Source of the DNA: a virus
Length of the DNA stretch: 64,000 nucleotides
Reading direction: 5' to 3' (one strand)
Virus record (IMG/VR): IMGVR_UViG_3300009124_000009
Coordinates: 7,014-71,013 of that record
A model generated the notes under the pieces. It made no database searches. It saw nothing but the letters and a program-made list of their open reading frames with translations, and was not told where the DNA came from. Below are positions 1 through 63,910 of the stretch, piece after piece. Positions within the stretch are counted from its first letter, which is position 1, and every line of letters begins with the position of its first letter. The translations under genes were made by a program, and so were the position numbers.

Positions 1-3000
1 CAAACCAGTTGCGGTAACATAGTTAGAACCACCAGAAAGAGTACCAAAGTTGAATGTGGCAACTCCACCTGCGTTGGGGTTAGCAATCGTGATGGTATCC
101 GCGATTTCATAATCAGTACCACCAGCATTTACAACTATAGCAGTTACTGCACCAGCAGTAGTTGTAATATCAACTGTCAACCCAGTACCAACACCGTCAG
201 AAGTTGTTGCTACTGCCGTTGCATCAGAGAAACCTCCAATACCATCATTGCTAATAGCACCTGCAGTAACAACAGCACCAGGTGTAGGATCACCCGACAG
301 GTTCAGAGTCAGTGTAGTTGTAGTTGCGAGGTTGTTGAGCATTGCTTGCAGTTGAGCAAATGCGTTGTCCAACTTATCCTGAACTCTTGCTTCTGTGTAG
401 TAGAGGTTAGTTCCCTCAGACAGATCAGAAGTGGTCTTCTGAGAAAGGTCGAGATTTGCACCAGTTGCAGCAGCAACTCTTACATCAGCACGAGCATCTG
501 TATAGTAAAGGTTTGTAGAACCTTCAGACAGATCATCAGTAGTTGCAGCAGCAATCTTAGTATCGAAGGATGCCTCAGCACGAGCGTCTGTGTAGTATAG
601 ATTTGTAGAACCCTCAGACAGATCGTCGGTAGTTGCAGCAGCGATACGAGCATCTGCTCTAGCATCTGTGTAGTAAAGATTTGTAGAACCTTCTGCTACG
701 TCGTCGGTTGTCTTAGTTGCAAGACTTGTATCAAAACGTGTTTCAGTGTAGAAGACGTTGGTAACACCCTCAGTGATGTCATCAGTTGTCTTAGTTGCAA
801 GTTGAGTATCCCATCTTGCAGTGGTATAGTACAGATTTGTGCCTTCTGTCAGGTCATCTGTAGTCTTACCTGCAAGACTTGTGTCGAAGCGACCCTCAGT
901 GTAGAAGATGTTAGTAACACCTTCGGTTACGTTGTCGGTATCAATATCTGCCTGAGTTACACTCAGTTCACCGCCAACGCTAAGTTCAATACCAGTGCCG
1001 TATGTGAAGTGAGTTCTGGTACGAGCAGCAGTGGTAAAGAGATTAGTAACACCTTCAGTTACGTTGTCGGTGTCAATGTCTGCTTGAGTGACGCTTAGTT
1101 CACCTGCATTGAGTTCAATGCCCGTACCATAAGTGAAGTGTGTACGGGTGCGAGCAGCAGTTGTGAAGAGGTTAGTAGTACCCTCAACAACATCGTCAGT
1201 ATCAAACTCGCTGAATTCAGCACTCAGAGTCAGTAGGTTACCTGCATCGTTGTAAGTAGCAGTAATACCAGTACCACCAGAAATCAGAGCAGCAACGCGG
1301 TCATCAACACGCTCATTGGTGTAGTAGAGGTTTGTGCCCTCAGTCAGATCTGTAGTAGAGTGGTTTGCAATGCTGGAAACTTCACCAGTTACATCACCAA
1401 TAACACCACCATTTGCAGTGATTGTACCAGTGAATGTAGAGGTTCCAGTTACTGCCAGAGTGCTGGACAGAGTGGTTGCGCCAGTAACTCCAAGTGTGGA
1501 ACTTAGAGTTGCAGCACCAGTTACGCCAAGTGTATCGGATAGAGTGGTTGCACCAGTAACTCCAAGAGTGCTGCTCAGAGTTGTAGCACCCGTTACGCCT
1601 AAAGTGCTACCGAAAGTTACAGCACCATCGGCATTTAGTGTGCTTGCGGTATCTACAGCACCAGTTGTGCCATCTACAGTAAAGTTATTTGTGTCAACTG
1701 CAATGCCACCATTGGCATTCAGAAGACCCGTGAGGGTGGTTACACCCGTTACACCCAGTGTTCCGCCTACAGTTGCGTTACTGCTTGCTGCAAGCGTTAC
1801 AACGTTGACTGCACCAGCAGCAAAACCACCACTACCATCACGAAGGACGAGGTTGTTTGCAGCGTTTGTGGTAGCAGATAGAATGTTGATCGTTGGATTG
1901 CCTGCAACACCATCACCCTGAGTGACTGTGATACCAGAACCAGATGCAGGAGAGGTAACCAGAGTGCGCTGAGCATAGGTGTTAGCAGCAGTTCTGCTTA
2001 CGAAACCTGTACCAGACATTGCTGCCAGACCATCCATGTCTGCATCATCAAACGTAGTGGTCAGAGTTACGTTCTGAGAACCATCGAAGGATACAGTTGC
2101 ATTGACAACACCATCAATCGTGAAGGTGCGAGCAGTGCGAAGTTCATCAGCAGTTGTTGCGTTACCCTGAATACCTGCGTTAGCACCAATGCCATTGTTG
2201 ACAGTAATTTGATTAGCAGAGAAGTTACCATTAGTTCTGGAAACAACGCTGTTACCAGAAGTGTCAGTGCTGCTTGTGGTTAGACCATCAAGAAGGTCAG
2301 CGTTCAAGTTATTGACCTTTGTATTAGATGCAACAACCAGAGGTGGTTGACCAGTGACTGTAGAAATGATTTGACCATCAACAGTCAGATCACCATTTAC
2401 AATTGCATCAGCATCAACATCGAGGATTGTGCCAGTACCAGTCAAACGCAATTGATTTGCTCTGAGGTTGCCGTCTGTACCAGAGAATACTTCGCTGCTG
2501 TTTGTTGCAGAAGTCAGGAAGACAAACTCGTTAGCAGAGTCGTCATAACCAAAGAAACCAAGTCTAGCACTTCCACTATAATAGCGGAACTCAATACCAC
2601 GATCTTTGTTGTCATCTGATGTAGGAGCACTATCACCACCAAGAGTGAAGATAGGATCATCAATCGTAACCGTGGTGCTGTTTACAGTTGTTGTGCTACC
2701 GTTTACAACCAGGTCACCACCAACAATCAGATTGTTGTGGAACTCACCATTACCTGTGCTGTTGTCAACACTGAATGCAGCACGAGAATTTGCAGCATCC
2801 CAGATGTAGAAGTCGCCACCGATGTAAGCATTCTTCTCTGCTCTGAAACCACCTTCTGTCGATAGAGAAACTGTATTATCAGTATAAGAAGTGATATCAG
2901 AAGTATTACTAATCGAAACACGACCACTGAAACCAGTGTTACCAGACTGAGTTGTGCTACCAGAGATCTCAAAGTCTCCGTAGACACGCATGTTGCCGCC

Positions 3001-6000
3001 AACAGAGAGGTTCTTAGCAACACCTGCACCTCCAGTAATTCTTACGGCACCATCAGCAGCATAGAGTCCTGTGAGTGTTTGGTCAGCAGCATTAGTGAAA
3101 CTGGATACACCAGTAACTCCTAAAGTGTTATTCAGTTGAGTGGCATTGCCAACTGTTAGAGTACCAACGATATTAGTGTTACCACTATCAGAAGCAACGG
3201 TAAATCTATCTACAGCAGAACCATTTTGGACTGCAAACTCTCTACCTGCTTCATTGATGATTAGAGTATCATTGATTACAGTCTGACCCTGAATCGTTAC
3301 CGTACCCTGTATATCAGTATTACCGTTGTCTGTATCTACAGTGAACTTATCTACGCCAGAACCATTCTGAATGGCAAACTCTTCGTTTGCAGCATTGATA
3401 ATTACCGAATCGAAAATAGTCGTCTGACCATCTACAACAAGAGTGCTATTGAAATCAACTGCACCATCTACATTCAGGGTGCTATCAAAGTCTACCGCTT
3501 GGTTGACAGTGACGTTATCAGTGAAAGTAGCGTCAGAGTTGACAGTAAGAATATCAGTATTAGCATTACCTAGAGTAATTTGAGAACCATTGACTGTTAG
3601 ATCTCTATCAAGTAGAGTATCACCATAAACGGTTAGAGTACCTACAGATGCAGTTCCTGCACCAGAGCGACCGATTGTAGTATTACCAGAAGCACCAATA
3701 ACTTGGAAATCGATAGTATCGCCATTATTTTTCTTACCAATAAAGAGATCTTCACCGATATGGAGATCAGTAGCAATACCAGCACCACCATAGACTCTCA
3801 GGTTCGAGGTATCATGTGTTGCATAGGAAGGAGTATATATTGCTCTTGTACCTGTGCGTAACTTATAACGAACTTCCAAGTAGTTCTGTCTGTTATAGTT
3901 CGCGGTAGTATCTTCTTTCTGAATGATCTGACCATTGACGTAAATGTCAGAGTTGTAGAGTGTATCCCCTTCTACATAACCACCACCGTCAAACTTGAAC
4001 GAACCATAATCAGAATTCTGAATGTCATAAAGACCAGTAGATCCATTCAGAGCAATCTGAGGTTCCGCAGTCTTTTCAAGTCTTACAAATTCAAGTACGT
4101 TTAGGGTGTTGTTTAGATCAACAGCATCGGTAACAGTAAGTGTACCTTCAATTTGAGTGTTACCGTTGTCAGTATCTACAGTAAACTTAGATACGCCAGC
4201 ATTGGTTTGAATATCGAACAGCGAGTTGTCGCCATTGATAGTTACGTTTGTTTGGAATGTTGCATCACCATCAACATTCAAAGTGCCATCAATATCTGTA
4301 TTACGCTGTACGTTTAGATCACGAGCAATAACAGTATCCCCAGTAGCAGAAGCAACAGTAAATACGGAATTGATGTCAAAATCATTAGAAATATCGACAG
4401 TACCACCGATATGAACGTTTTCACTGATACCCACACCACCAGTAACAACCAGAGTACCAGTTGTAGCAGAAGTTGACCCAACATTGGAAGTAAGGGCGAG
4501 GTTACCAGCAACCACGCCAGCATCAGTACCAGAGAATACTTCAGCAGTGTTCGTAGCGTCATATAGGAATCGGTAACCACCTGTAGTGCCTGCTAGTGTT
4601 CCGTAGTTGGCATCCCAACCAAAGAATCCTAGTCTTGCTTGACTATCATAATACCTGATCTCGATACCTCGGTCAAGCGTGTCTGGTGCAGTTGGAGCAG
4701 TGTCACCGCCAAGAGTAATTACAACATCATCCACCGTCATGGTGGTAGAGTTTACAGTTGTTGTAGTACCATCGACTTGGAGGTTACCTTTGATCTGAAC
4801 AAGACCAGTATCATCACCCTCAGTTGCAGGGTCAATGATAATAGTGGAATTGTCAGAGGTTATTGCATTTGCTCTGAACCAAATGTCTTCTGCTTTGACA
4901 TAGTTTGATGCGTTTGTGGATGATAGTACAACATCGTTGTCAGCAGTGATATTGATGGTGGCGCTGCCAGCACCAGCGTTGGTACTAACAATATCAAAAA
5001 CTCTATTTGTGGCAGAATTGACGTTGTGGAAAAGTTTGAGTGACCCAGCAGTACGCTCGATAGTTTGGAGAGGAGTTGTACCAGGGCGATCCAGATAGAT
5101 ATTGGCACCACTGATGTGAGTATCAACATTGATATCAACATCACCAGCGCCAGAATTTCCAGTATTATTAGCAGTAAATAGAAGAGAACCACTAGTATCA
5201 TTGACAGTTACATAATTTAGATAGTTGAAACCACGATAACCTGTGGTTGCGGTGAGTTCTTGGTCGAGTTCAAAATCTTCCTTAGTGTTGCCATCTGCAA
5301 AGGAGATTCTGTTGTTTTGAAGTTGAGTATTATCTACACCGAGGGCGGCAATGGTGACGTGCCCGTTGCCGTCAACGTCGAAATCTTCCTGTGCAAAGGA
5401 AGCCAATCCCTTCTGCTCTGTTGCCGCAGCCGCGAGGAACCTCCATCCTCCAGTATCGCTGCTATCAGTATGAGCTGGGGCACCAGCGCCCGCAAGAATA
5501 TCTTGAATGGCTTGATAGACGTTACCACCTTCTTCGATGATGTCATATCGGGAATACGATGTCCCAGCATTGTATGTAGCGTACTTACTGCCTTCACGAG
5601 CAGTAGCAATAGGCACATTTGTTGCGCTTTGCAGACGACCCCTGTCGTCAACAGTAAATTTGACTGCGTTTACGGTCTCTGTACCAAATGGTTCACCTGC
5701 AGGACCGTTAGCAGATACGGAAGTTAGAGATTCTGTGTTGTAATCGCCATCAACAACAGTTGTAGTTGCCAGATCAATCTGTGGGTTGCCAGCAGTACCA
5801 GAACCGTTTGTTACAACAATTTGACCTGCTGTAGAAAGAATGCTTCTAGTTGTCCAGTTACCATCACCAATACGAATACCAATACCAGTAGAGGTAAGAC
5901 CTGCAACTGCATTCAAGTCATTATCATATGGTTGAGCACCAGACCCTTCAATGCTGGTGTCTAGACCATAATCTTGAATAGTTGTTGGGTTTGAAGCGTT

Positions 6001-6760: not shown

Positions 6761-7001
6761 AATTTAGACCTTTCTGATTTTGAACTAACGTTAGTAAGAG
6801 AGATTTGATATCACTCATCTCAGATTTTAGCACAGCAACATCGTCTTGTAAACGACCGACTTGTGCTTCCTTTGCCTGTTCTGCTTCTAGTCCTGCCATA
6901 TAGGCATCATAGGTAGAACGATTCACCATGGTAATTTCACCGTTGGGTCCCCGAACTAAATCGGGGTCACCCTCAACACGTTGTACTTTTGACCAATCCA
7001 T
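6750..7001 (-). CDS. Small hypothetical protein with C-terminal coiled coil (83 aa)
   Basis: ORF track; start abuts the stop of the 2441-aa gene. Confidence 0.75.
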   Translation of the reverse strand: MDWSKVQRVEGDPDLVRGPNGEITMVNRSTYDAYMAGLEAEQAKEAQVGRLQDDVAVLKSEMSDIKSLLLTLVQNQKGLNYDD

Positions 7002-21583: not shown

Positions 21584-21590
21584 TATTTAG
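21584..21590 (-). promoter_or_regulatory. Late promoter (CTAAATA)
   Basis: tatttag overlapping the stop of the 6166-aa gene, 23 nt upstream of the YHYH ATG. Confidence 0.65.
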
Positions 21591-40107: not shown

Positions 40108-42288
40108 TTATGTGAAACAACCTGAACCGACTACTACAGGTGATACAACCGTTGGAATTGGTGTCTGTGGTAGACTCGACTCGAATTGACCTGGCGTGAT
40201 ACTATTTAGTGGGATAGACGAAGGTGGAATAGTGCCAACAGTTGCCACTGTAACTGGTGGTTGTGGGAATGCAATAATAGTTCCTGGAGTTGTTGGAGTA
40301 ATCGTAAAGTTATTGGATGGAATAACAATTACAGGAATAGAAAGATCATTATCGGAGATCACATACGTGTTTCCATCACCCGTTCCTCCAGTACCGCCAG
40401 AAGAACCAGTACCATCGCCAGTCCCGCCAGTGCCCGTACCTCCATCACCGCCAGTGCCCGTAGTGCCACCCCCATCTCCAGCACCACCACTAATAAATCC
40501 ATTGTCTCCAGCAGCAAGTTGATCTACTGCAGTTGGTGGATTATTTTGATCGCCAATAATTGCTACTGGTCCTACAGTAATACTGCCACTTTCATAATCA
40601 ACGGTCCCAAATTGGGGATTGGTCATAACTTGATTGCCACCATCGATATAGAAGGAGTATATATTTCCATAACCATCATCAGTAAAATATTGTTGAGTTG
40701 CTGGTCTATCAGTTGTGTAAAAAGCACCAGATAGAATGACTGGTTCTTTATAGCAGTTGCTACTTACCGCTTTACCAGAAGCATCAACAACTTCTCCCGT
40801 AGTTCCAATATTTTTAGATGGTGAAGTATCTAAAATCGGAGTACCATATTGAAGTGTATACGTATTTGCTAGATTTTTCTCTGGTTCAATATATTTGACT
40901 AGTGTAGTCTGAATTGAAGTACCTTCTAAAGAAGGATCTGCCAAAGAAATTGCACGAAGCAGTTTAGATTGATTATATGAAGCACCAAAGTTGTTTAGAC
41001 CAGTCTGATCAGCAAATTCTGCCAAAGAGTTGTCAACTTTTGCTTGCAACTCAGATGCAGTTAGAGAAGTTTTATTTGGATCGTATGTAGTGAAGATTTT
41101 ATTTGCAATATACAAATAATCTGGATCTGCAATTCTCGTTTCTAGAGATGCCATGGTGTATTTTTGCAAATCTTTAGCAATTTGCAATTTTGTAGCATTA
41201 TTGAGTTTATTGCCACTCTGAGTTTTGATAGCAACGTAAACTTTTCCGTATACTGCTGGTGTAAGTTGATCTCCACCAAATGCAACTACGGAATCTGCGT
41301 TTGGATACACCCGTTTAGTCAGAATCTCATAATCTCTAGTTGTAACTGCTCTGTTTTGGGTTGCATAGTACCTAGGAGCAGCATATTTGATGGATTCCAC
41401 ACTCTCCCTAGGAGAACCCTCTTGAGAACGCTCATAGACGGTTACAGTAACCTGTCCAGCACTGTATTCAATACCGTTACTGTCAATAATTGTTCCTACA
41501 AATCCAATATCCTGAATATCGTTTGCTTCAGAACCATTAGAAACGATATATTCAAATTCAACAATCTCACCATCCTGCAATGCTCTACCAATAACACCAT
41601 CACCGAAGAATACTTCGTATCTAAGGTCTGCTACTTCGTTCAGATAGTAAATTCTAGAGGTATTATTTAGTTGTGTGACAACATCCACCTTATTGTAGGT
41701 ATCAACACTAGTAGACTGTTCGTTGGGTCTTACAGAAACCTTTAGAGTTGCTACATCGACATCTTCATTGGGGATGATGTATCTCTGTCTTTGGAATGTA
41801 TCAACAGTATAAGAGTATGTTAGTAGAGCACCTTCGGTGAAGAGGACTTTATCGAGCACGGCTTTTCCGAGATTGTCTACGGAGAAGGTAATGTCGTTTA
41901 GTGCATTGAAAATATACCCATCACCAGCAACTGCTGCACCTTTTTTCAGCGTTACAAATCTAGGGAACTCTAAATTGCTCTGAATTGTCTGTAGTTCTAG
42001 TTTTACGCAAATTTTTGCCGAAGTAATAGACCTAGGAACATAATTTAGTAGTTTTGCGATATTAGCAACATTTGCTCTTGTAGATGCACTATTGATGAAT
42101 GCTTCATTGATCAGCATATTTGACGTAAACGCCGAATAATACGTGTTATACGCCAGAATATCAATCAGATACGAAAGCGTTGATCCCTCAAAATCATAGT
42201 CCGTAAACTCATCCCGAGTCCTCAGATACGTTTTGATAGATGCTTTGATATCATCAAAATTTAGTGCTGTAAGATTATTTGGTTGCAT
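40108..42288 (-). CDS. gp6: Baseplate wedge subunit gp6
   Basis: LNFDDIKASIKTYL..FTDYDFEGSTLSYLIDILAYNTYY and QNRAVTTRDY motifs; Gly/Thr-rich C-terminal insertion at ~40370-40500. Confidence 0.92.
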   Translation of the reverse strand: MQPNNLTALNFDDIKASIKTYLRTRDEFTDYDFEGSTLSYLIDILAYNTYYSAFTSNMLINEAFINSASTRANVANIAKLLNYVPRSITSAKICVKLELQTIQSNLEFPRFVTLKKGAAVAGDGYIFNALNDITFSVDNLGKAVLDKVLFTEGALLTYSYTVDTFQRQRYIIPNEDVDVATLKVSVRPNEQSTSVDTYNKVDVVTQLNNTSRIYYLNEVADLRYEVFFGDGVIGRALQDGEIVEFEYIVSNGSEANDIQDIGFVGTIIDSNGIEYSAGQVTVTVYERSQEGSPRESVESIKYAAPRYYATQNRAVTTRDYEILTKRVYPNADSVVAFGGDQLTPAVYGKVYVAIKTQSGNKLNNATKLQIAKDLQKYTMASLETRIADPDYLYIANKIFTTYDPNKTSLTASELQAKVDNSLAEFADQTGLNNFGASYNQSKLLRAISLADPSLEGTSIQTTLVKYIEPEKNLANTYTLQYGTPILDTSPSKNIGTTGEVVDASGKAVSSNCYKEPVILSGAFYTTDRPATQQYFTDDGYGNIYSFYIDGGNQVMTNPQFGTVDYESGSITVGPVAIIGDQNNPPTAVDQLAAGDNGFISGGAGDGGGTTGTGGDGGTGTGGTGDGTGSSGGTGGTGDGNTYVISDNDLSIPVIVIPSNNFTITPTTPGTIIAFPQPPVTVATVGTIPPSSIPLNSITPGQFESSLPQTPIPTVVSPVVVGSGCFT

Positions 42289-52978: not shown

Positions 52979-53488
52979 TCATTTCATATAAAGGTAACCA
53001 CCTGCCCAGTCTGCTTTCTCATAACACTCCTCGCGAGATTTGTCATCGAGTAGATTATAACGAGCACCCTTTGCAGGAGACTTGAATGATGCAGGTTTGA
53101 AAACATCGCCCGTCTTCTTGTCTACAAAGGCATGAACTGAGCGACTGCTAGAGTTATCCTGCTCCATGATAATCTTATAGTATTTACGTCCTTCTTCAAT
53201 AGGAAATGCAACCTCAGGATCACTATTAGCGATCTGATCTATGCGCTTTTGATGATAGTCTGCCTCAGACATGTTGCCTGCATTGGCAGCAAAGAAAAGA
53301 GAGCGTTTGTGTGATTGCATACAGCGAATCTTATAGTCCATGACTAGATTCTCACACAGCATGAGAGTATAATGATCTACCTGTTCTTGAGTTGATTGGC
53401 GTTCACCTTCGGTTGCACAATACTCAGCAAAAGACATACGTTCTTTCTCTTTGTTGTTGAGATGGATTTGATACTTGATTGCAGACAT
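52979..53488 (-). CDS. Conserved phage hypothetical protein (169 aa)
   Basis: GRKYYKI..SVHAFVDKKTGDVFKPASFKSPAKGARYNL..ADWAGGYLY, a recurring T4-like phage early family. Confidence 0.8.
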   Translation of the reverse strand: MSAIKYQIHLNNKEKERMSFAEYCATEGERQSTQEQVDHYTLMLCENLVMDYKIRCMQSHKRSLFFAANAGNMSEADYHQKRIDQIANSDPEVAFPIEEGRKYYKIIMEQDNSSSRSVHAFVDKKTGDVFKPASFKSPAKGARYNLLDDKSREECYEKADWAGGYLYMK

Positions 53489-53688: not shown

Positions 53689-53945
53689 TGGGTTTTTCCC
53701 TTTGATTGCTTAGCAATCTTAGCACCTGGGGACCGCTTTCGGCGTGGTTTGGGTGCAGTTTCAGGATTGGCACACTCTAGTACGAATGTACCTTTCTTCA
53801 ACTTGTATTGTTTGATATACTTTTCCGCGTTCTCTTTGCAGTGGAAAAAGCATAGTTTCATGGGAGGTTTTTTCCTCCCTTCTTTAGGTCCATCCTGGTG
53901 TTCTAGACGCCAGGGCATACTCTCGTAGGGAAACTTTTCAGACAT
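53685..53945 (-). CDS. Small basic hypothetical protein (MSEKFPYE...)
   Basis: ORF 53685..53981; probable ATG at 53945 overlapping the nuclease stop; PWRLE..LCFFHCKENAEKYI motif. Confidence 0.65.
   Translation of the reverse strand: MSEKFPYESMPWRLEHQDGPKEGRKKPPMKLCFFHCKENAEKYIKQYKLKKGTFVLECANPETAPKPRRKRSPGAKIAKQSKGKTQ
53716..53775 (-). promoter_or_regulatory. Early promoter with upstream palindrome, copy 6 (inside the 3' end of the upstream ORF)
   Basis: Minus strand GTGTGCCAATCCTGAAACTGCACCC ... TGC-TAAGAT at the same spacing as the other copies. Confidence 0.65.
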
Positions 53946-54447
53946 ATTCATCCATCCAGTAGAAGTCTTCAGGCATACCATCGAGGAAGAATGTGCCGCT
54001 ATTTACTTTCTTTCCGCCATGCTGATTGTAGATCCATTCATTCTTCTCATTGACAACCATTACATGCTTCTTGATGGTATCTTTGTCAGCATAGAAGAAA
54101 CAAATGCTAGAATGATAGACGGCAACAAATACCATCACATCGTAATCTTGCGCGGGACGGATCTGCTGCCAGCGGAAATGTGTGCCCTTATCCCACATGA
54201 ATGATCCTTTGATCTCTACCTTTAGACCATCAACAATACGATCGTGATCGCTATTCTTGGGTTTCTCTACTTTCTTGCCTTTGCTAACACAATACTCCTC
54301 AAAGATCTTCTCAAAATACTTACCTTTCTTCTTGCTGCTGAGTTGCTTCAGCGGTTGAAATACGCTGCCATGATAGTAGTCATCGTCATGCTCATTGAGA
54401 ATCTCAGCATAACAATCAAGTTTCTGGAATTGAGTGGCGTGAAGCAT
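53938..54447 (-). CDS. Type IIP restriction-endonuclease-like PD-(D/E)xK nuclease, probable MseI (T^TAA) family (169 aa)
   Basis: Catalytic pattern KGKYFE...SDHDRIVDGLKVEIKGS; downstream W..G..F.WQQIR..QDYD and QHGG match MseI as I recall it (SDADRVINGHRIEIKMSTLW..FKFQQIR.QEYD..QHTG); first gene after promoter copy 7. Confidence 0.75.
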   Translation of the reverse strand: MLHATQFQKLDCYAEILNEHDDDYYHGSVFQPLKQLSSKKKGKYFEKIFEEYCVSKGKKVEKPKNSDHDRIVDGLKVEIKGSFMWDKGTHFRWQQIRPAQDYDVMVFVAVYHSSICFFYADKDTIKKHVMVVNEKNEWIYNQHGGKKVNSGTFFLDGMPEDFYWMDEYV

Positions 54448-54530: not shown

Positions 54531-54730
54531 TATCCCCAGTTTTCCATCCATTCTGCTAAAGTGTAACCTTCATCCGTACAGGTTTCTTCCACTAACTCTT
54601 CGAGAGTTAGTTTCTCTATGTCTGCACGATACTCCTCTGGAGTAGGATCTTCGGGATCATAATCGTCATGGCAGAGATACTCCCACTCTGCCACCAGTGC
54701 ATCAATCAGTTGTTGTTTAGTGTAGTTCAT
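54530..54730 (-). CDS. Small very acidic protein (66 aa)
   Basis: ORF track; 20 of 66 residues are D/E. Confidence 0.7.
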   Translation of the reverse strand: MNYTKQQLIDALVAEWEYLCHDDYDPEDPTPEEYRADIEKLTLEELVEETCTDEGYTLAEWMENWG

Positions 54731-54733
54731 AAA

Positions 54734-55972
54734 TCAGCAATATGCGAGGGGAGGAATACCTTCCATGAAGATCTGGTTGACAACATTCTGCAAACGTGCA
54801 GCGATAGCGTTACCCATCTTGTAACCTGTAGGCATAGTCACGATGCCCTCTTGTTTCTTGTAAAGGTGAAACGCACCAGCAGGAATCAGACCCTGAGCAA
54901 CAGCAGCACGGTCATCTTTGTGGACACGGATAACACGACCGATCGTCTGTGCCATCTCAATGATGGGCAGATTACGCAGCAGAATAGTATGCGTCAGACC
55001 AGGAACATTGATGCCCTCAGAGAGAATGGAATAGTGGAAGATTACAAACTTCTTGCTATCATCAGCACCCCAAGATGTGAGGGTCTGGAAGAACTCTTCA
55101 CGACCAACTTTGCGATCATTGATGATAGCACCAAACTTGCTGGTGATGTGCATCACGTCGTAACCTTTGCGGTAGAAATACTCCAGAATGTCAGTCTGTC
55201 CGAGCATGTTACCCAGCACCTTAGAAGATGGTGCAGCAACCAGAACTTTAGGATTCTGGAAGACATCGAGTTGCTCAAACATATCCTTCAGATTGTCTGC
55301 ATCAACCTCATGTGCGTTATGCTTAGTGCGGGTGCGATTGGTCTCGAAAGGAACAATGCGGGGAGGAACGATTGCACCTGCTTCGATGAGTTCTTGAGCA
55401 GGGACATTGCAGAGAGTGCCACCATAAACGTCGCTATTGTTCATGCCACGAGTTACACTAGTGCCGCGACCAGTGCGAGGAGTTGCAGTAAAATAGTAGC
55501 GACGTTTGGCATACTGTGCGGTAGCATATACAGCACCGAAGAAGTGACGACCGCAACCATTGTGTGCTTCGTCGAAGTAAATGGTATCAATATCGATGCC
55601 ACTATCTACAACACGGGGCAGAGAATGATAGGTGGTAAAGATCAGCGTAGACTTGGCATTACTGCGCCACAGAGTAGCAGCAGAAGCAATCTCTGCTGGT
55701 TTGGTAGTGCTGAAGTGGTGAGTTTCGCCACTGTGAACGTGCATAACGCGAGTCGAAGTAGCAGACACAAACTCCATGAACTCTTCGCACAGTTGATTAG
55801 CGAGAAGAATACGGGGAGCAACAACAACTGTAGTGCTACCCTGTGCAGCACGAGCAAGACAATCAGCGATCATGATGTAAGTCTTGCCACCACCAGTAGG
55901 CACAATGATCTGACCCTTATCGTGCTTCTGCATTGCATCGAAAGCACGTTGTTGATGGGGGCGGAGTTGCAT
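54734..55972 (-). CDS. Superfamily-2 DEAD/DEAH-box helicase, ResIII-like (412 aa)
   Basis: Q motif LRPHQ, Walker A PTGGGKT, DEAH, TAT, LSEGINVP and QTIGRVIR; start re-assigned to MQLRPHQ (55972) downstream of promoter copy 8. Confidence 0.9.
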   Translation of the reverse strand: MQLRPHQQRAFDAMQKHDKGQIIVPTGGGKTYIMIADCLARAAQGSTTVVVAPRILLANQLCEEFMEFVSATSTRVMHVHSGETHHFSTTKPAEIASAATLWRSNAKSTLIFTTYHSLPRVVDSGIDIDTIYFDEAHNGCGRHFFGAVYATAQYAKRRYYFTATPRTGRGTSVTRGMNNSDVYGGTLCNVPAQELIEAGAIVPPRIVPFETNRTRTKHNAHEVDADNLKDMFEQLDVFQNPKVLVAAPSSKVLGNMLGQTDILEYFYRKGYDVMHITSKFGAIINDRKVGREEFFQTLTSWGADDSKKFVIFHYSILSEGINVPGLTHTILLRNLPIIEMAQTIGRVIRVHKDDRAAVAQGLIPAGAFHLYKKQEGIVTMPTGYKMGNAIAARLQNVVNQIFMEGIPPLAYC

Positions 55973-55997
55973 TACGAGTTGATTTCTCAAGTATGCA

Positions 55998-56059
55998 TAT
56001 AGTATTGCATAAAAAAAGTCCCCTGTCAAGAGGACTGTGACGCTTATTCAGGTGGCACA
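55998..56059 (-). promoter_or_regulatory. Early promoter with upstream palindrome, copy 8 (TTGACA-17-AATACT)
   Basis: Minus strand TGTGCCACCTGAATAAGCGTCACA, then TTGACA at 56024-56029 and TGC-AATACT. Confidence 0.75.
56011..56036 (-). terminator. Rho-independent terminator overlapping the -35 box of promoter copy 8
   Basis: Minus strand AGTCCTCT-TGAC-AGGGGACT followed by a T run, just after the stop at 56044. Confidence 0.7.
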
Positions 56060-60366: not shown

Positions 60367-60538
60367 CCTCTCTATTGAACTTCTTGCGACACTTCTTCAC
60401 CTCTTTGAGTTCATCTTTGATCATTTGATATGCATCCTCAGCAGAGATCTTTCGTGCCATTTCCATAGCAGTGATGACCTCCACTCGTGTGCCAAAGTGT
60501 TTGAGTGCTTCTTCAAAACAGTTTAGTTCTTCGTACAT
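60347..60538 (-). CDS. Small conserved cyanobacterial/cyanophage-type protein (63 aa, MYEELNCFEEAL...)
   Basis: 3' part of ORF 60347..60559; F..RV..I.AME...KIS.EDAYQ.IK pattern. Confidence 0.7.
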   Translation of the reverse strand: MYEELNCFEEALKHFGTRVEVITAMEMARKISAEDAYQMIKDELKEVKKCRKKFNREGVCADD

Positions 60539-60540
60539 AG

Positions 60541-61893
60541 TTATGCTGGATAATCCCAATTAGTTATTTGTCTTGTTTTGTAGTCTGGTCCCCATCCGCC
60601 AGTATAGATGAAAGGAGCAGTACGAATGGGGCAACTGTCGCCAGTACAGAGAAGATCATCAACGATCCTCCAGGATTCCATAACTTCATCTGCATGAACA
60701 AAGTGAGATTGGTCACCATGAATAGCATCATACAATAGTTTTTCGTAACCGTCAATAGATCTATCCTCAGGATATGCATGAGTCAGTGTTGCTGTCTCCA
60801 CATCATCATTGAATCCTGGTGCTTTCATATCAATACGAATATCCAGGTGAGGATGTGGTTGTAGACGCATAACAATACGATCATTGTATTCATGACCAGT
60901 GAATAATTGTTGTGGCGGTGATTTCAATTTGATCACAACTTCTACGCATTGATATGGCATTTTCTTGCCAGTCATGACGTGAAAAGGAACTCCCTCCCAA
61001 CGCCAGTTATCGACGAATAAAGTGCCAGCAAAATAGGTAGGAGTACCACTATTAGGATCAACGCCCTCTTCATTACGGTAACCATGGTATTGTCCAAGAA
61101 TAATGTTCTCAGACATTCTAGTGGCGGCAAGCACCTTTGTCTTCTCACGTCTGATTTCCCTGGCATTCATTTTACTTGGTGGTTCCATTGCTACAAGTGC
61201 TAGCACTTGAAGAATGTGGTTCTGTAACATGTCACGAACTTGTCCTGCTGTCTCGTAGTATTGAGCACGACCTTCACAACCAATAGTTTCGGTTGCAAAG
61301 ATTTGCACCTCTTCTACATACTGGCGGTTCCAAAGTGGTTCCAGAAGAATGTTGCTGAAACGAGTAGCAAGTATATTATTGACAGTATCTTTACCGAGAT
61401 AATGGTCAATGCGATATACTTGTTTCTCGCGTAGACATCTAGCAACCACAGTTGATAGACGATCAGCAGATTTATAATCGTGCCCAAAGGGTTTCTCAAT
61501 AACAACACGGGAGAGTTCTGGGTTTTCGAGGAGTCCTGCTTCTTTGAGATTGATGATAGCATTCTCATAGCGTTCTGGGGGTACGGATAAGAAGTAAGTT
61601 GAATCATCTGCATCTGGTAGATTTTTCAATGACTCTGGACTATCCAGATCAGTGCTGATCCAATCCAAGCGATGTAAAAAATCTTCAGGATATTCTCCCA
61701 AAGATTCCACCCATGTTTGTTTTGCGATCTCACGACGAGATGTCCCTACAATCACAAGATTACTTGGAAGTAAATCTTTCTGGTGTAGTTTATACAGAGC
61801 AGGGATTAGTTTTTTCTTTGCCAGATCTCCAGTAGCACCGAAGATTACTATCTGATAAGTAAGTATTTCAGTGAGCGGTGCCGTTTCCGTCAT
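60541..61893 (-). CDS. zwf: Glucose-6-phosphate 1-dehydrogenase
   Basis: GATGDLAKKKL, RVVIEKPFG, YRIDHYLGK, RDMLQNH; start most likely ATG 61893 (the ORF track extends to 61986). Confidence 0.95.
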   Translation of the reverse strand: MTETAPLTEILTYQIVIFGATGDLAKKKLIPALYKLHQKDLLPSNLVIVGTSRREIAKQTWVESLGEYPEDFLHRLDWISTDLDSPESLKNLPDADDSTYFLSVPPERYENAIINLKEAGLLENPELSRVVIEKPFGHDYKSADRLSTVVARCLREKQVYRIDHYLGKDTVNNILATRFSNILLEPLWNRQYVEEVQIFATETIGCEGRAQYYETAGQVRDMLQNHILQVLALVAMEPPSKMNAREIRREKTKVLAATRMSENIILGQYHGYRNEEGVDPNSGTPTYFAGTLFVDNWRWEGVPFHVMTGKKMPYQCVEVVIKLKSPPQQLFTGHEYNDRIVMRLQPHPHLDIRIDMKAPGFNDDVETATLTHAYPEDRSIDGYEKLLYDAIHGDQSHFVHADEVMESWRIVDDLLCTGDSCPIRTAPFIYTGGWGPDYKTRQITNWDYPA

Positions 61894-61999
61894 AGTCGTC
61901 CGAGTCGTAGTAGTCATTTTCACCTTTTCGTATCCCGAAATATATTGTGGATAGTACAAATGGTATTGCTGTCCAAAGTAAGACATCAGCGAATTTCAT
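61868..61999 (-). CDS. Small membrane protein (43 aa)
   Basis: Manual translation MKFADVLLWTAIPFVLSTIYFGIRKGENDYYDSDDYDGNGTAH*. Confidence 0.65.
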   Translation of the reverse strand: MKFADVLLWTAIPFVLSTIYFGIRKGENDYYDSDDYDGNGTAH

Positions 62000-62147
62000 T
62001 ATTCTCATCCAATCCGAGTTCGTTTAGATAATCAATCCACCACTGGGGATTATTCTTAGTTTTCCAATCGGGGACATCTAATCCCCTCTCAGAGTACCAC
62101 TCAAAAAAAGCATTATCTATAATCTGTGCGGTCTGAATAGTCTTCAT
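61986..62147 (-). CDS. Small hypothetical protein (53 aa, MKTIQTAQIIDNAFF...)
   Basis: 3' part of ORF 61986..62225; Trp-rich. Confidence 0.6.
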   Translation of the reverse strand: MKTIQTAQIIDNAFFEWYSERGLDVPDWKTKNNPQWWIDYLNELGLDENNEIR

Positions 62148-62325
62148 CCTCATTATCAACGTCTTCATATGCATTTGCCACATAGGGTCCGTGGGGTCGT
62201 TTTGCATCCCATTTGCCATATTCAACCTCAGCGTTTACTGCTGCAACCCATACAGAGAGTTTCATTATTATGTAGATAACTACTAAAGGTAGGAAACAAC
62301 CGACCAGGATGAGTGTCTGTGTCAT
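62113..62325 (-). CDS. Small membrane protein with acidic tail (70 aa)
   Basis: ORF track; N-terminal TM; ATGA overlap with the gnd stop. Confidence 0.7.
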   Translation of the reverse strand: MTQTLILVGCFLPLVVIYIIMKLSVWVAAVNAEVEYGKWDAKRPHGPYVANAYEDVDNEDEDYSDRTDYR

Positions 62326-63347
62326 CTTACATCGTGTCCTCCAAACATAAATCTCATACCATTCAGAATCTTGGACGCGAAAGCACCAAGACGGCGCGAC
62401 TCAAAGCGCGAATACAGAGCACTGCTGATGACAGGAGCGGGTACGCCAAGATCCACAGCAGCGTGAACCGTCCAACGACCCTCACCACTGTCTGATACTC
62501 CCCCATCGAAGTTGCTAAGTTCTCTATCGTTGCGTAGAACATCAGCGGTAAGATCGAGCAACCAACTACCAACCACGCTACCACGACGCCATAACTCAGC
62601 AACCTTAGCAACGTCAATATCATAGCAATAACTCTCAGGATTTGACATTGGTGCTACCTCAGCATCACCCTCTTTCACATACTTAGAACCAGCATTTGCT
62701 TCATGTAGGATATTGAATCCCTCAGCATATGCTTGCATAATACCATACTCAATACCATTGTGAACCATCTTCACAAAATGCCCTGCACCTGGTCCGCCAC
62801 AATGCATCCAACCGTACTCCTCAGGATACCAAGTGAAGTTGCTGTCAGGTTGAGTCCTGGGGGCAGCATTGTATCCTGGTGCGAGGGCATCAAAAATTGG
62901 GCGACAAACGGAGACCGCAGTATCTCCGCCGCCAACCATAAGACAGTATCCACGCTCCAAACCATAAACACCACCACTAGTACCACAGTCAATATATTGG
63001 ATGCCAAGTTTAGACAACCTCGCTGCCCTCTTGCGAGAGTCTTCAAAATTGGAATTGCCATGATCAATAATAATGTCGCCTTCACTACAATATCGTAGTA
63101 GGTCATTGATAGTATCCTCTACTAATTCTGCTGGAACAACCATCATGTAGACACCAGGACGATTAGCACTAACTACTTGAACAAGATTTTCAATAGAAGT
63201 GGTACATCCACTGATATAACCCTTTTCAAATTGTTCTTCTGCTTTCTGATAATTTCTGCGATACCCATGTACTTCATGTCCTGCTGCGATTAGACGGCGA
63301 GACATACCCTCGCCCATTCTTCCTAAACCGATAATTCCTACTTTCAT
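62322..63347 (-). CDS. gnd: 6-phosphogluconate dehydrogenase (decarboxylating, short form)
   Basis: GIIGLGRMG, IIDHGNS, DCGTSGG, GAGHFVKMVHNGIEYG, DSGEGRWT, MRFMFGGH. Confidence 0.95.
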   Translation of the reverse strand: MKVGIIGLGRMGEGMSRRLIAAGHEVHGYRRNYQKAEEQFEKGYISGCTTSIENLVQVVSANRPGVYMMVVPAELVEDTINDLLRYCSEGDIIIDHGNSNFEDSRKRAARLSKLGIQYIDCGTSGGVYGLERGYCLMVGGGDTAVSVCRPIFDALAPGYNAAPRTQPDSNFTWYPEEYGWMHCGGPGAGHFVKMVHNGIEYGIMQAYAEGFNILHEANAGSKYVKEGDAEVAPMSNPESYCYDIDVAKVAELWRRGSVVGSWLLDLTADVLRNDRELSNFDGGVSDSGEGRWTVHAAVDLGVPAPVISSALYSRFESRRLGAFASKILNGMRFMFGGHDVR

Positions 63348-63478
63348 GGGTTGTGGTTCTTATTTGATTTGATTTGATTATATCCCCAGACTGCTAGGGT
63401 GCCGATACCTAGACCAGCAATACAGCAAAAAAACATATGAATAAGGTGTTCAAAGGTTGAGTGGTCAGCGTGATTCAT
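63344..63478 (-). CDS. Small membrane protein (44 aa, MNHADHSTFEH...)
   Basis: 3' part of ORF 63344..63562; ATGA overlaps on both sides. Confidence 0.65.
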   Translation of the reverse strand: MNHADHSTFEHLIHMFFCCIAGLGIGTLAVWGYNQIKSNKNHNP

Positions 63479-63597
63479 CCGAAATACATTACAGAGAGTG
63501 TGAAGATAACAAAGATGATGATAGTAAACATCATCAATCCTACACCTGCCCAGACGACCCAAGCAGGCATAGGTTCATAGTTGTGATTATGAGACAT
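63475..63597 (-). CDS. Small membrane protein (40 aa)
   Basis: Manual translation MSHNHNYEPMPAWVVWAGVGLMMFTIIIFVIFTLSVMYFG*. Confidence 0.6.
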   Translation of the reverse strand: MSHNHNYEPMPAWVVWAGVGLMMFTIIIFVIFTLSVMYFG

Positions 63598-63910
63598 GTA
63601 CTGTTCCAATCATGCCCGCACCTTTATGGGGAGCACACCAGTAAGTATAATCTCCTGGTTCGGAAAAAGCAATATCAAAACTTTCACCTGGTGCAAATGC
63701 AAGTCCTTCGTGGGAAAGTTCTGGATGGTCTTCTACCACAACATTATGTGGTGGAAGCATGTTATTAACAAAGTGAACTGATTCGCCAGCAGCAATAGAA
63801 ACCTCTGCTGGTTCGAATACTAGGTTGCCATTGGCACCCATCTGGACATCTACAGCCCATGCAGGAAGTGCAAAGAAAAGAGTAGTGAAAAGTGCGAGAA
63901 GAAACTTCAT
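63587..63910 (-). CDS. petE: Plastocyanin precursor
   Basis: Signal peptide ending PAWA, LVFEP, PHNVV, YWCAPHKGAGM type-1 copper ligands. Confidence 0.95.
   Translation of the reverse strand: MKFLLALFTTLFFALPAWAVDVQMGANGNLVFEPAEVSIAAGESVHFVNNMLPPHNVVVEDHPELSHEGLAFAPGESFDIAFSEPGDYTYWCAPHKGAGMIGTVHVS

What the first reader, a model, noticed from the sequence alone, without database searches (positions are those of the whole stretch)
1..63764. Near-total absence of the tetranucleotide TTAA across 63.7 kb of AT-rich DNA
Seen: checking every TAA by eye, none is preceded by T before position 63765, while TTAG, TTAC, TTAT, CTAA, GTAA, ATAA, AATT, TATA and TTATAA are all common. At roughly 60% AT, several hundred copies would be expected (0.3^4 x 64000 is about 500, a rough estimate). 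The avoidance covers core structural genes, the variable early region and intergenic DNA, so it is sustained selection rather than codon bias; even TAA stops are never preceded by T. Inference: lethal selection against this one site, from either the phage's own nuclease or a host MseI-like system.
Basis: seen in the sequence. Interest (0 to 1): 0.85.

Follow-up and report, generated by a model that had tools for sequence, protein, structure and literature searches.

The report
TTAA-free cyanophage carrying lone restriction enzyme
This marine cyanobacterial virus has purged the four-letter word TTAA from its DNA and carries a restriction-enzyme gene without the usual protective methylase, which suggests that the virus cuts other DNA at TTAA and is safe only because it has no such site itself.

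Summary
TTAA occurs twice in the 64-kb window and in the whole 71-kb contig, against about 200-520 expected and 280±11 after synonymous codon shuffling. The contig is a T4-like cyanomyovirus (Kyanoviridae). Three complete isolate genomes of its nearest relatives (S-RIM14, S-SSM2, S-ShM2) have 0 TTAA against about 590 expected.

The window encodes a 169-aa Type II restriction-endonuclease homologue at 53938-54447, minus strand. It has a PD-(D/E)XK motif and fold and a predicted homodimer, and no methyltransferase beside it. In 52 viral contigs that carry this gene family, TTAA is the most depleted 4-mer (O/E 0.30 against 1.03 in controls). Thirty of them have an N6/N4 methyltransferase next to the gene. 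The only other isolate with the gene, S-BM3, has TTAA O/E 0.14 and the matching methyltransferase elsewhere in its genome.

My best reading (about 0.6) is a phage-borne TTAA nuclease, with the phage protected by having no sites. The main rival is host restriction. It is supported by family-wide loss of CCGG, RGCY and many 6-bp palindromes. Cleavage specificity has not been tested.

The parts
1..63764 (.). TTAA-free DNA. It continues upstream to the start of the contig, which adds 7,013 nt.
   Evidence: Searches give the counts, another the codon-shuffle null and the codon-context bias.
53938..54447 (-). Solitary Type II restriction-endonuclease homologue (169 aa, PD-(D/E)XK), the proposed TTAA nuclease.
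   Evidence: PADLOC PDLC03515 REase_II, E = 6.3e-16. E46, D69 and E78-x-K80 are invariant in 30 homologues. The AF2 model has pLDDT 92.8. The best Foldseek PDB hits are I-Ssp6803I, EcoRV, Eco15I-N, NhoI and PvuII. The homodimer model scores 0.80 against a best control of 0.00. No Pfam or NCBIfam family matches. TTAA is depleted wherever the family occurs.
54734..56029 (-). Helicase (ResIII/DEAD), the upstream neighbour of the nuclease gene. Other Kyanoviridae carry DNA methyltransferase genes at this position.
   Evidence: Pfam. Annotated neighbours in S-H35, S-RIM8, S-RIM2 and Syn30.
52979..53488 (-). DUF7717 gene. It sits downstream of the nuclease gene, where 30 homologous loci carry an N6/N4 methyltransferase.
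   Evidence: Pfam. Cassette structure. No credible methyltransferase remnant was found: tblastn gave only short matches, with E-values from 0.002 upward.
63765..63768 (.). Residual TTAA no. 1, inside petE (codons GTT-AAT on the minus strand).
   Evidence: S-RIM8 and S-WAM2, which have normal TTAA, carry TTAA at the same alignment column.
63910..63913 (.). Residual TTAA no. 2, overlapping the petE start codon, 90 nt from the contig end.
63587..63910 (-). petE (plastocyanin), the only gene with TTAA. It is either a recent import or a chimeric assembly end.
   Evidence: Its best nucleotide match is S-RIM8 at 84.5% / 83.5%, a lineage with normal TTAA. Read laying could not settle the junction.
62322..63347 (-). 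gnd (6-phosphogluconate dehydrogenase). TTAA is avoided here by amino-acid changes.
   Evidence: It is 81% identical to S-WAM2. Where S-WAM2 and S-H9-1 read TTT-AAG, ATT-AAC and TTT-AAC, this gene reads TTT-GAA, ATT-GAC and TTT-GAG.
40108..42288 (-). gp6 baseplate wedge gene, used as the phylogenetic marker.
   Evidence: One search gave the loci. In the tree, the TTAA-free loci form one clade of 7 rows (SH-aLRT 100), which needs a single change.

Best explanation
The window is about 40% of the genome of a T4-like marine cyanomyovirus (Kyanoviridae, sister to Ahtivirus). The phage carries a small homodimeric PD-(D/E)XK Type II restriction endonuclease (window 53938-54447, minus strand) that most likely recognises TTAA, like MseI. 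In most viral contigs this gene sits in a two-gene cassette with an N6/N4 DNA methyltransferase. Here and in Ahtivirus the methyltransferase is missing, so the phage can tolerate its own nuclease only because its DNA has no TTAA at all. Every new TTAA would be a self-inflicted double-strand break, which explains the zero count in coding and non-coding DNA and the amino-acid changes made to avoid the word. The enzyme would cut host DNA, which is unmethylated at TTAA, and the DNA of co-infecting TTAA-rich phages, and so provide nucleotides and exclude rivals.

Shown here: the absence of the site, the nuclease homology, motif, fold and dimer model, the lack of a methyltransferase, and the association of the gene family with TTAA depletion.

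Inferred: the TTAA specificity, the activity during infection and the biological role.
For: 1. The gene is a Type II REase homologue. PADLOC REase_II PDLC03515 gives E = 6.3e-16, and 2.3e-24 for the S-RIM14 copy. E46, D69 and E78-x-K80 are invariant. The fold hits are sequence-specific PD-(D/E)XK endonucleases, with TM-scores of only 0.35-0.56. The homodimer model scores 0.80 against a best control of 0.00. That mark was reached by 20 of 30 proteins solved as pairs of one chain and by 1 of 23 solved as single chains. The runs agree in at least 95% of contacts and the partner pLDDT is at least 90.

2. Among the genomes I held, the gene occurs only in the TTAA-free ones (G000, S-RIM14, S-SSM2, S-ShM2). 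It is absent from S-H35, S-RIM8, S-RIM2, G001 and G002, whose TTAA O/E is 0.79-1.10.

3. In the 52 IMG/VR loci that encode the family, TTAA is 814 observed against 2755 expected (O/E 0.30). Twenty loci are below 0.15, 14 are at 0.15-0.5, 15 are at 0.5-0.8 and 3 are above 0.8. In 80 control loci O/E is 1.03 (Mann-Whitney p = 1e-16). AATT, TATA and CTAG do not differ between the two sets.

4. In an unbiased scan of all 4-mers, TTAA is the most depleted in these loci relative to controls (ratio 0.28; the next is GGCC at 0.52). No further 5-mer or 6-mer signal appears.

5. The depletion holds in both deep branches of the nuclease tree. It also holds on CCGG-free (Kyanoviridae-like) and CCGG-normal backgrounds, for example L262-L266, L269, L272 and L274 at 0 TTAA.

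6. The cassette logic fits. Thirty loci have a full methyltransferase downstream, with pooled O/E 0.30. The 17 records without one, which include G000 and the three Ahtivirus genomes, have pooled O/E 0.07. The downstream ORF is PF01555 in 8 of 10 tested.

7. An independent prediction held. Of 50,697 phage records, the only non-Ahtivirus isolate with a clear homologue is S-BM3. Its genome has TTAA 76/552 = 0.14 and carries a methyltransferase 69-72% identical to the cassette ones. S-RIM14 has no PF01555 methyltransferase.

8. There is a precedent for protection by lack of sites: the solitary PacI, whose host genome lacks its site (PMC3488263, passages read).
Against: 1. No cleavage data exist. 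I could not compare the protein with R.MseI, because no reference sequence was available, and the cluster names were uninformative.

2. The contig has two TTAA in petE, which an active solitary TTAA nuclease should cut. They fit the model only if the last 430 nt or so are a chimeric assembly end or a very recent import, and read laying did not settle this.

3. Ten nuclease-bearing loci without a methyltransferase within 2.5 kb still hold TTAA at O/E 0.10-0.56 (L280-L286, L288-L290). L287, a 3.7-kb locus with no room to judge, is at 1.02. A distant methyltransferase has been shown only for S-BM3.

4. Only about 40% of this genome is in hand, so a methyltransferase elsewhere cannot be excluded for G000 itself.

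5. The same genome also lacks CCGG, RGCY, CAAGG and six 6-bp palindromes, and I found no phage nuclease for any of them. Strong restriction-type selection from outside the phage therefore exists, and it could include TTAA.

6. The association could arise if phages that already avoid TTAA because of host MseI-like systems tend to capture those systems.

7. Many of the 52 loci are close copies of one another (45 distinct of 55 rows), so the number of independent lineages is nearer 20.

8. A distant homologue in ACG-2014f (24.5% identity) goes with only mild depletion, 38/65 in 18 kb.
Confidence: 0.6

Rival explanations
1. Classical restriction-site avoidance. The natural hosts of this phage clade carry an MseI-like TTAA restriction-modification system, and the unmodified phage escapes by having no sites. 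The phage-borne nuclease gene is a captured or selfish passenger and is not the cause.
For: The genome shows the textbook signature of Type II avoidance at many other words for which no phage nuclease was found. Six of 36 testable 6-bp palindromes have O/E below 0.2, against 0 of 1835 non-palindromic pairs. In four complete relatives the figures are 10-14 of 42-45 against 0-1 of about 1880. CCGG is 11 observed against 607 expected over 80 loci. Other clades have lost other words: CATG in 11 loci, GTAC in 3, TCGA in 3 and ACGT in 2. A viable Ahtivirus keeps one CCGG and RGCY is only partly depleted, as expected for pressure that is met only sometimes. The partial TTAA depletion in many loci is also natural under host restriction.
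Against: The published literature I read places marine picocyanobacteria at the bottom of the R-M distribution. [quoted passage not shown] TTAA-rich phages (S-RIM8, S-RIM2, S-H35, with about 630-880 sites) grow on the same laboratory hosts, WH7803 and WH8102, as the TTAA-free ones. The T7-like cyanophages Syn5 and P-SSP2 have normal TTAA. This rival does not explain why the nuclease keeps its catalytic residues while the methyltransferase is the partner that was lost, the opposite of what anti-restriction would select. It also does not explain why TTAA, of all 4-mers, tracks this gene family on unrelated phage backgrounds. I could not reach host genomes, so host R-M content is untested.
Confidence: 0.28
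2. A mutational or technical cause. This could be biased mutation or repair (for example UV photoproducts at TT/AA, or deamination at methylated sites), codon bias, or a sequencing or assembly artefact.
For: None was found. The idea rests only on the AT-rich, surface-ocean setting.
Against: Codon shuffling gives 280 +/- 11. AATT, which also has TT on both strands, is present 356 times, and TATA 262 times. Zero counts recur in three isolate genomes and in independent metagenome contigs. Avoidance includes amino-acid changes at exactly the positions where relatives have TTAA. That m6A is not mutagenic is from recall.
Confidence: 0.02
3. The 169-aa protein is a nuclease with another role (homing, repair, or methyl-directed like Mrr). 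Its link with TTAA depletion is then a by-product of shared ancestry of the contigs that carry it.
For: One homologue is labelled 'restriction endonuclease Mrr' by a source. The best fold hit is a homing endonuclease, I-Ssp6803I, and two others are methyl-directed enzymes. Several of the loci are close relatives of one another.
Against: The gene is paired, overlapping and co-oriented, with an N6/N4 methyltransferase in 30 loci, which is the layout of a Type II R-M system. A methyl-directed enzyme would not be paired with a methyltransferase in this way. The depletion is specific to TTAA and appears in both deep subfamilies and on CCGG-normal and CCGG-free backgrounds. The S-BM3 prediction held.
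Confidence: 0.1

Closest known systems
PacI, a solitary Type II restriction endonuclease of Pseudomonas alcaligenes (as described in PMC3488263, passages read)
   Same: It is a restriction enzyme without a cognate methyltransferase. The genome that carries it is safe because it contains no recognition site.
   Different: PacI has an 8-bp AT-only site (site recalled) in a bacterial chromosome, where absence costs little. Here a 4-bp word expected about 590 times per 180-kb AT-rich phage genome has been purged, partly through amino-acid changes. The carrier is a lytic virus.
MseI (T^TAA) restriction-modification system. The MseI family is listed in the PD-(D/E)XK block of Table 1 in PMC2441816 (passages read). 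The site and the N6-adenine methylation are recalled.
   Same: The inferred recognition word is TTAA. The fold class is PD-(D/E)XK. The protein is small. In 30 homologous loci the partner is an N6/N4-type methyltransferase.
   Different: Sequence relatedness to R.MseI could not be tested here. Cleavage has not been shown. In this phage the methyltransferase partner is absent.
Chlorovirus-encoded R-M systems, such as R.CviJI (RGCY) and R.CviAII (CATG), which degrade host DNA early in infection
   Same: These are virus-borne 4-bp cutters proposed to destroy host DNA while sparing the virus.
   Different: Chloroviruses protect their own DNA by methylation. This phage would protect itself by having no sites and no methyltransferase. 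The host is a bacterium and the virus is T4-like.
Restriction-site avoidance in phages against host R-M, for example the loss of GATC in Staphylococcus phage K and of GGCC in Bacillus phages (recalled)
   Same: There is complete, clade-wide loss of short palindromes at the DNA level. This applies here to CCGG, RGCY and the 6-bp palindromes.
   Different: For TTAA the candidate selecting nuclease is encoded by the phage itself, and the hosts are reported to be poor in R-M systems.

Membership tests
Type II restriction endonuclease, PD-(D/E)XK superfamily (PADLOC REase_II PDLC03515) | Significant sequence match to a curated REase profile | tested here: met
   E = 6.3e-16 over residues 19-131 for the window protein, 2.3e-24 for the S-RIM14 copy, and 1.6e-14 and 4.8e-16 for two cassette copies. 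Pfam and NCBIfam give no match.
Type II restriction endonuclease, PD-(D/E)XK superfamily (PADLOC REase_II PDLC03515) | Catalytic E...D...(D/E)xK residues conserved | tested here: met
   E46, D69, E78 and K80 are invariant in 30 sequences (A1) and in 28 sequences that span both subfamilies (A2).
Type II restriction endonuclease, PD-(D/E)XK superfamily (PADLOC REase_II PDLC03515) | Restriction-endonuclease-like fold | tested here: met
   The model has pLDDT 92.8. The Foldseek PDB hits are I-Ssp6803I (E = 7.9e-5), EcoRV, Eco15I-N, NhoI and PvuII. TM-scores are modest at 0.35-0.56.
Type II restriction endonuclease, PD-(D/E)XK superfamily (PADLOC REase_II PDLC03515) | Homodimer, as expected for a Type IIP enzyme on a palindrome | tested here: met
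   The model supports binding but does not show it. The score is 0.80 against a best control of 0.00. The mark was reached by 20 of 30 proteins solved as pairs of one chain and by 1 of 23 solved as single chains. My own alignment was used, so these counts hold only roughly.
Type II restriction endonuclease, PD-(D/E)XK superfamily (PADLOC REase_II PDLC03515) | Cognate methyltransferase gene adjacent | tested here: not met
   No PF01555 methyltransferase is in the 71-kb contig or in complete S-RIM14, and there is no credible remnant. The feature is met in 30 homologous loci and met at a distance in S-BM3. The window copy is therefore a solitary REase.
Type II restriction endonuclease, PD-(D/E)XK superfamily (PADLOC REase_II PDLC03515) | Site-specific double-strand cleavage | not testable with these tools
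   This needs enzyme assays.
MseI isoschizomer (TTAA) | Recognition of TTAA | tested here: inconclusive
   The support is indirect. TTAA is the 4-mer most depleted in gene-bearing loci. Counts are zero where no methyltransferase is present. S-BM3 is at 0.14.
MseI isoschizomer (TTAA) | Sequence similarity to R.MseI or M.MseI | not testable with these tools
   No reference sequence was available and the cluster names were uninformative.
Phage restriction-site avoidance against host R-M | Selective loss of palindromic words relative to non-palindromic ones | tested here: met
   O/E is below 0.2 for 6 of 36 palindromic hexamers against 0 of 1835 non-palindromic pairs in this contig.
Phage restriction-site avoidance against host R-M | Hosts encode R-M systems of the avoided specificities | not tested
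The literature reports few R-M systems in picocyanobacteria (PMC8262939 and PMC6708340, passages).
Kyanoviridae (T4-like cyanomyoviruses) | Gene content and sequence similarity to named members | tested here: met
   Nucleotide matches of about 80% to S-RIM14, S-SSM2 and S-ShM2. gp6, helicase, Kyano_Gp96, zwf, gnd and petE are present. The gp6 tree places the contig beside Ahtivirus.

The most novel reading that the evidence does not exclude
T4-like cyanophages have no modified bases to tell their own DNA from the host's. Instead they solve the problem with methylase-free short-site restriction enzymes plus a genome purged of the site.
Probability: 0.15. Interest if true: 0.9.

Novelty: new variant of a known kind. 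Interest (0 to 1): 0.72.

Why it matters
1. How cyanomyoviruses degrade host DNA while sparing their own unmodified genome is, to my knowledge (recalled), not explained. A solitary TTAA cutter in a TTAA-free genome is a concrete mechanism that can be tested.

2. It would be a virus-scale example of immunity by absence of sites for a 4-bp word. It would also show how an R-M cassette can shed its methyltransferase once the carrier genome is clean.

3. The forbidden-word maps of Kyanoviridae show strong restriction-type selection in hosts that are reported to be poor in R-M systems. They predict enzyme specificities to look for.

4. In practice, forbidden words flag chimeric assemblies and recent recombination in cyanophage metagenomes. 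The family may also supply small new TTAA enzymes.

In nine full-text searches I found no paper reporting TTAA or CCGG avoidance in marine cyanophages or a cyanophage solitary restriction enzyme. The gene is annotated 'restriction endonuclease' (T4-GC_685) in the S-BM3 record.

Tried and rejected
1. An extra Dam-type methyltransferase beside the helicase as the protector of TTAA in TTAA-normal phages. Rejected: G001 and G002 have only the core D12 methyltransferase and still have normal TTAA.

2. Subtractive search for a nuclease among the 29 ORFs of S-RIM14 that are absent from S-H35, S-RIM8 and S-RIM2. The 196-aa ORF between gp44 and the core methyltransferase is only the C-terminal part of an HNH homing endonuclease (phrog_953). 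The others were SAICAR synthetase, redoxin, 2OG oxygenases and DUFs. The 169-aa ORF had no Pfam or PHROG function and was recognised only later by motif and PADLOC.

3. HpaII-like and MspI-like enzymes in 5 phage records each: none. C5 methyltransferases: none in 5 + 2 records.

4. PADLOC on ORFs next to the helicase-side methyltransferases of S-RIM8, S-RIM2 and S-H35: no REase hit. Syn30 gave a weak one. The idea that every clade has its own cassette therefore stays unproven.

Host R-M content and host TTAA frequency were not tested.

6. Read laying on window 61000-64000 with runs X1, X2, X4 and X5. Exact pieces at depth of about 15-18 are listed between 61036 and 63347. No exact piece over petE appears in the part of the table shown. 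The table was cut, so nothing follows about the petE junction. The best holders were labelled estuary and seawater metagenomes, and I draw no habitat claim from the small shares.

7. Names of distant homologues: only 'hypothetical protein' and one 'restriction endonuclease Mrr'.

8. The ACG-2014f distant homologue is ambiguous (TTAA 38/65).

9. No methyltransferase remnant was found beside the nuclease gene.

10. UV-dimer and m5C-deamination ideas were rejected by the AATT and TATA counts and by the zero counts.

11. My first 'helicase' query (window 54668-56002, plus strand) was the antisense reading of the real gene (54734-56029, minus strand). The identities are therefore antisense-frame values, and I used them only to pick records.

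12. Supplementary tables of PMC2441816 and PMC3488263, which may list MseI-family members and solitary enzymes, were not seen.


Full report
**Observation.** The window (64,000 nt, 41.5% GC) holds TTAA only at 63765 and 63910. The second-order Markov expectation is 197 and the base-composition expectation is 470. The window is bases 7014-71013 of a single 71,013-nt contig, and that contig has the same two sites and no others. Shuffling synonymous codons within 66 crudely called ORFs gave 280 ± 11 TTAA, with a minimum of 244 in 200 shuffles. The 2.4 kb called intergenic has 0 against 20 expected.

The avoidance works through context-dependent codon choice:
- Before Lys or Asn codons, Phe/Ile/Val NTY codons end in C 272 times and in T once. 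Elsewhere T is preferred, 2117 to 938.
- Leu TTA never precedes an A (0 of 454, against 87 of 965 elsewhere).
- None of 22 TAA stops follows a T.

In gnd, where the nearest relatives read TTT-AAG, ATT-AAC and TTT-AAC, this phage reads TTT-GAA, ATT-GAC and TTT-GAG. Even amino acids were changed to avoid the word.

**What the DNA is.** The contig is part of a T4-like cyanomyovirus, about 40% complete by CheckV. Nucleotide matches of about 80% go to S-RIM14, S-SSM2 and S-ShM2, genus Ahtivirus. The genes include gp6, a ResIII/DEAD helicase, Kyano_Gp96, zwf, gnd and petE.

I built a gp6 tree of 84 rows; 2 of 86 rows shorter than 450 aa were left out. It places the contig in a well-supported clade of 7 rows with S-RIM14 and five IMG/VR loci. 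All 7 are TTAA-free, and one change on the tree explains the trait.

The complete genomes of S-RIM14, S-SSM2 and S-ShM2 have 0 TTAA against 588, 590 and 586 expected. Other Kyanoviridae are normal. S-H35, S-RIM8, S-RIM2, G001 and G002 range from 0.79 to 1.10. Pieces of Syn30, Syn19, S-WAM2 and S-H9-1 range from 0.64 to 0.95.

**The wider picture.** TTAA is not the only missing word.
- CCGG is absent from this contig. Over 80 gp6-centred IMG/VR loci (1.05 Mb) it is 11 observed against 607 expected, and only L050 and L069 hold any.
- CCGG occurs 0-1 times in eight complete or near-complete (85-100%) genomes.
- RGCY is depleted about tenfold here.
- Among hexamers expected at least 5 times and free of those words, 6 of 36 palindromes have O/E below 0.2 in this contig, against 0 of 1835 non-palindromic pairs. 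In four complete relatives the figures are 10-14 of 42-45 against 0-1 of about 1880.
- Other clades have lost other words completely: CATG in 11 loci, GTAC in 3, TCGA in 3 and ACGT in 2. Some have lost non-palindromic 5-mers: TTCAA in one clade, CCAGC in one locus and CAAGG in this contig.
- The T7-like cyanophages Syn5 and P-SSP2 have normal TTAA, CCGG and mostly normal RGCY.

This is the classical signature of Type II restriction pressure. It is striking because the papers I read place marine picocyanobacteria at the bottom of the R-M distribution (PMC8262939 and PMC6708340, passages). I could not examine host genomes.

**The candidate gene.** I compared S-RIM14 with TTAA-normal genomes and checked which of its lineage-specific ORFs recur in this contig. 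This pointed to a 169-aa ORF at window 53938-54447 (minus strand), directly downstream of the helicase. Four other Kyanoviridae carry DNA methyltransferase genes at that position. The evidence on the protein is as follows:
- It has no Pfam or NCBIfam family, and its PHROG has no known function.
- It matches PADLOC's Type II restriction-enzyme profile PDLC03515, with E = 6.3e-16. The Ahtivirus copy gives 2.3e-24.
- Thirty homologues share invariant E46, D69 and E78-x-K80, the PD-(D/E)XK motif.
- The AlphaFold model has pLDDT 92.8. It finds I-Ssp6803I, EcoRV, Eco15I-N, NhoI and PvuII, with modest TM-scores.
- A homodimer model scores 0.80 against a best control of 0.00. That mark was reached by 20 of 30 proteins solved as pairs of one chain and by 1 of 23 solved as single chains. 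The runs agree in at least 95% of contacts and the partner pLDDT is at least 90. My own alignment was used, so the counts hold only roughly. This supports a dimer but does not show one.

**Association with TTAA.** A profile scan of IMG/VR found 52 loci that encode the family.
- Pooled TTAA in them is 814 observed against 2755 expected (O/E 0.30, median 0.24). Twenty loci are below 0.15 and only 3 are above 0.8.
- In the 80 gp6 loci O/E is 1.03 (p = 1e-16). AATT, TATA and CTAG are alike in both sets.
- In an unbiased comparison of all 4-mers, TTAA is the most depleted (ratio 0.28; next is GGCC at 0.52). No longer word adds signal, and the residual TTAA sites show no special flanks.
- The depletion appears in both deep branches of the nuclease tree. 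The copy in this contig and the Ahtivirus copy are only 35% identical and sit in different branches. It also appears on both CCGG-free and CCGG-normal phage backgrounds.
- In 30 loci the gene is followed, usually overlapping, by a methyltransferase. The downstream ORF is PF01555 in 8 of 10 tested.
- Loci with the methyltransferase pool to O/E 0.30. The 17 records without one pool to 0.07, including this contig and Ahtivirus at zero.

**An independent check.** Among 50,697 phage records the family hits only 12 Ahtivirus records and S-BM3. Five ACG-2014f records match at 24.5% identity. S-BM3, where the gene is annotated 'restriction endonuclease', has genome-wide TTAA of 76/552 = 0.14. It also carries, 82 kb away, a methyltransferase 69-72% identical to the cassette ones. 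S-RIM14 has no such gene, and the 71-kb contig has none either.

**Interpretation.** The simplest account is as follows. The family is a TTAA-specific Type II R-M system that circulates among marine phages. Genomes that carry it are selected to shed TTAA. Once the sites are gone, the methyltransferase can be lost. That leaves a solitary nuclease in a genome that must then stay at zero.

This matches the known case of PacI, whose host genome lacks its site (PMC3488263, passages). It also matches, functionally, the chlorovirus R-M enzymes that degrade host DNA (recalled). MseI's family is listed among PD-(D/E)XK enzymes (PMC2441816, Table 1, passages). That is compatible but weak evidence.

I put this reading at about 0.6. 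Its weak points are these:
- There is no biochemical evidence.
- No comparison with R.MseI was possible.
- Ten methyltransferase-less loci still hold some TTAA (O/E 0.10-0.56).
- Only 40% of this genome is in hand.
- The two TTAA in petE would be cut by such an enzyme.

**The two residual sites.** Both lie in petE, 90-240 nt from the contig end. petE is closest to S-RIM8, a lineage with normal TTAA. The internal site is at the same alignment column where S-RIM8 and S-WAM2 have TTAA. The neighbouring gnd is closest to S-WAM2 and S-H9-1. This fits a very recent recombinational import or a chimeric assembly end. The reads could not decide between them. Such boundaries therefore do occur in assembled cyanophage contigs.

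**Rival.** Host restriction remains a serious alternative for TTAA (about 0.28). It is the most economical explanation for the other avoided palindromes, because I found no phage nuclease for them. Three points count against it for TTAA:
- The nuclease is retained and the methyltransferase is lost.
- The gene-to-word association is specific to TTAA.
- TTAA-rich phages share the laboratory hosts WH7803 and WH8102.

**Verdict.** The finding is real, is much larger than chance, and is shared by published isolates. In nine searches of the library I found no report of it.

Noticed in passing
whole window; loci L006-L085; complete genomes of S-RIM14, S-SSM2, S-ShM2, S-H35, S-RIM8, S-RIM2, S-BM3, G001: CCGG is virtually absent from Kyanoviridae as a family. 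It is 0 in this contig. Over 80 loci it is 11 observed against 607 expected. It occurs 0-1 times per 170-180-kb genome. The rare exceptions with normal CCGG are L050 (10/8), L086 (19/15, a Syn19-like contig binned in a bacterial MAG) and ACG-2014f (9/13). The T7-like cyanophages Syn5 and P-SSP2 have normal CCGG. No HpaII-like or MspI-like gene and no C5 methyltransferase was found in the phages.
   Followed up: partly
whole contig (window 1-64000): The non-palindromic 5-mer CAAGG/CCTTG is completely absent (0 against 69 expected on both strands). It is normal in every other locus examined, including S-RIM14. No candidate gene was found among the five small contig-specific ORFs.
   Followed up: partly
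whole contig and four complete relatives: RGCY (AGCT, GGCC, AGCC/GGCT) is depleted about tenfold. A set of 6-bp palindromes is absent from most of the genomes examined: GACGTC, GTGCAC, TGCGCA, GGTACC, AGCGCT, GCATGC, GTCGAC, GGCGCC and CTCGAG. Their degenerate non-palindromic variants (for example GACGCC and AGCGCC) are normal.
   Followed up: partly
L030-L033, L036-L037/G001, L042/L050, L062-L083, L064-L085, L070: Other Kyanoviridae clades each lack their own word completely: TCGA, GTAC (plus all forms of YACGTR in G001), ACGT, TTCAA, CATG, and AGCT + CCAGC. S-RIM8 is depleted in GATC (105/676), S-RIM2 in AATT (240/799) and S-H35 in GTAC (98/500).
   Followed up: partly
G002 (record behind L066), 162.7 kb: TTCAA/TTGAA occur at normal frequency in the first 52 kb or so and not once in the remaining 110 kb or so. 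This suggests a chimeric assembly or a large recombinant. Forbidden words could serve as a chimera detector.
   Followed up: no
L005 (Syn30) 20788-21327, minus strand: A 179-aa ORF next to the Dam-type methyltransferase beside the helicase gives a weak PADLOC REase_II hit (PDLC03493, E = 7.8e-5). This may be another phage-borne R-M pair.
   Followed up: no
S-RIM14 159648; S-ShM2 158160; S-SSM2 87300: Each of the three Ahtivirus genomes keeps exactly one CCGG. In S-RIM14 it lies in the primase/helicase gene. A single site is evidently tolerated.
   Followed up: partly
S-RIM14 135850-138562 and the matching regions of S-RIM8, S-RIM2 and S-H35: A D12-class methyltransferase (64-86% identical among the four phages) sits between the clamp-loader genes gp44 and gp62. 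The gap before it is a variable insertion spot. It is empty in S-RIM8 and holds a 96-aa ORF in S-RIM2, an HNH-endonuclease remnant in S-RIM14, and 192-aa and 249-aa ORFs in S-H35.
   Followed up: partly
window 54668-56002, plus strand: A 444-aa open frame runs antisense through the helicase gene. It is conserved as an open frame in relatives. It misled my first query and is probably a shadow ORF.
   Followed up: no
window 21587-40087, minus strand (also 7001-14326 and 1-6459): Very large ORFs of 6,166, 2,441 and more than 2,153 aa lie in the structural region. Relatives annotate similar genes as virion structural proteins.
   Followed up: no
window 63348-63586: The 239-nt stretch between gnd and petE is 96% identical to S-H9-1 and 87-90% identical to several other phages. 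This is far more conserved than the flanking genes (81% and 78%). It holds a small ORF for a predicted membrane peptide.
   Followed up: no
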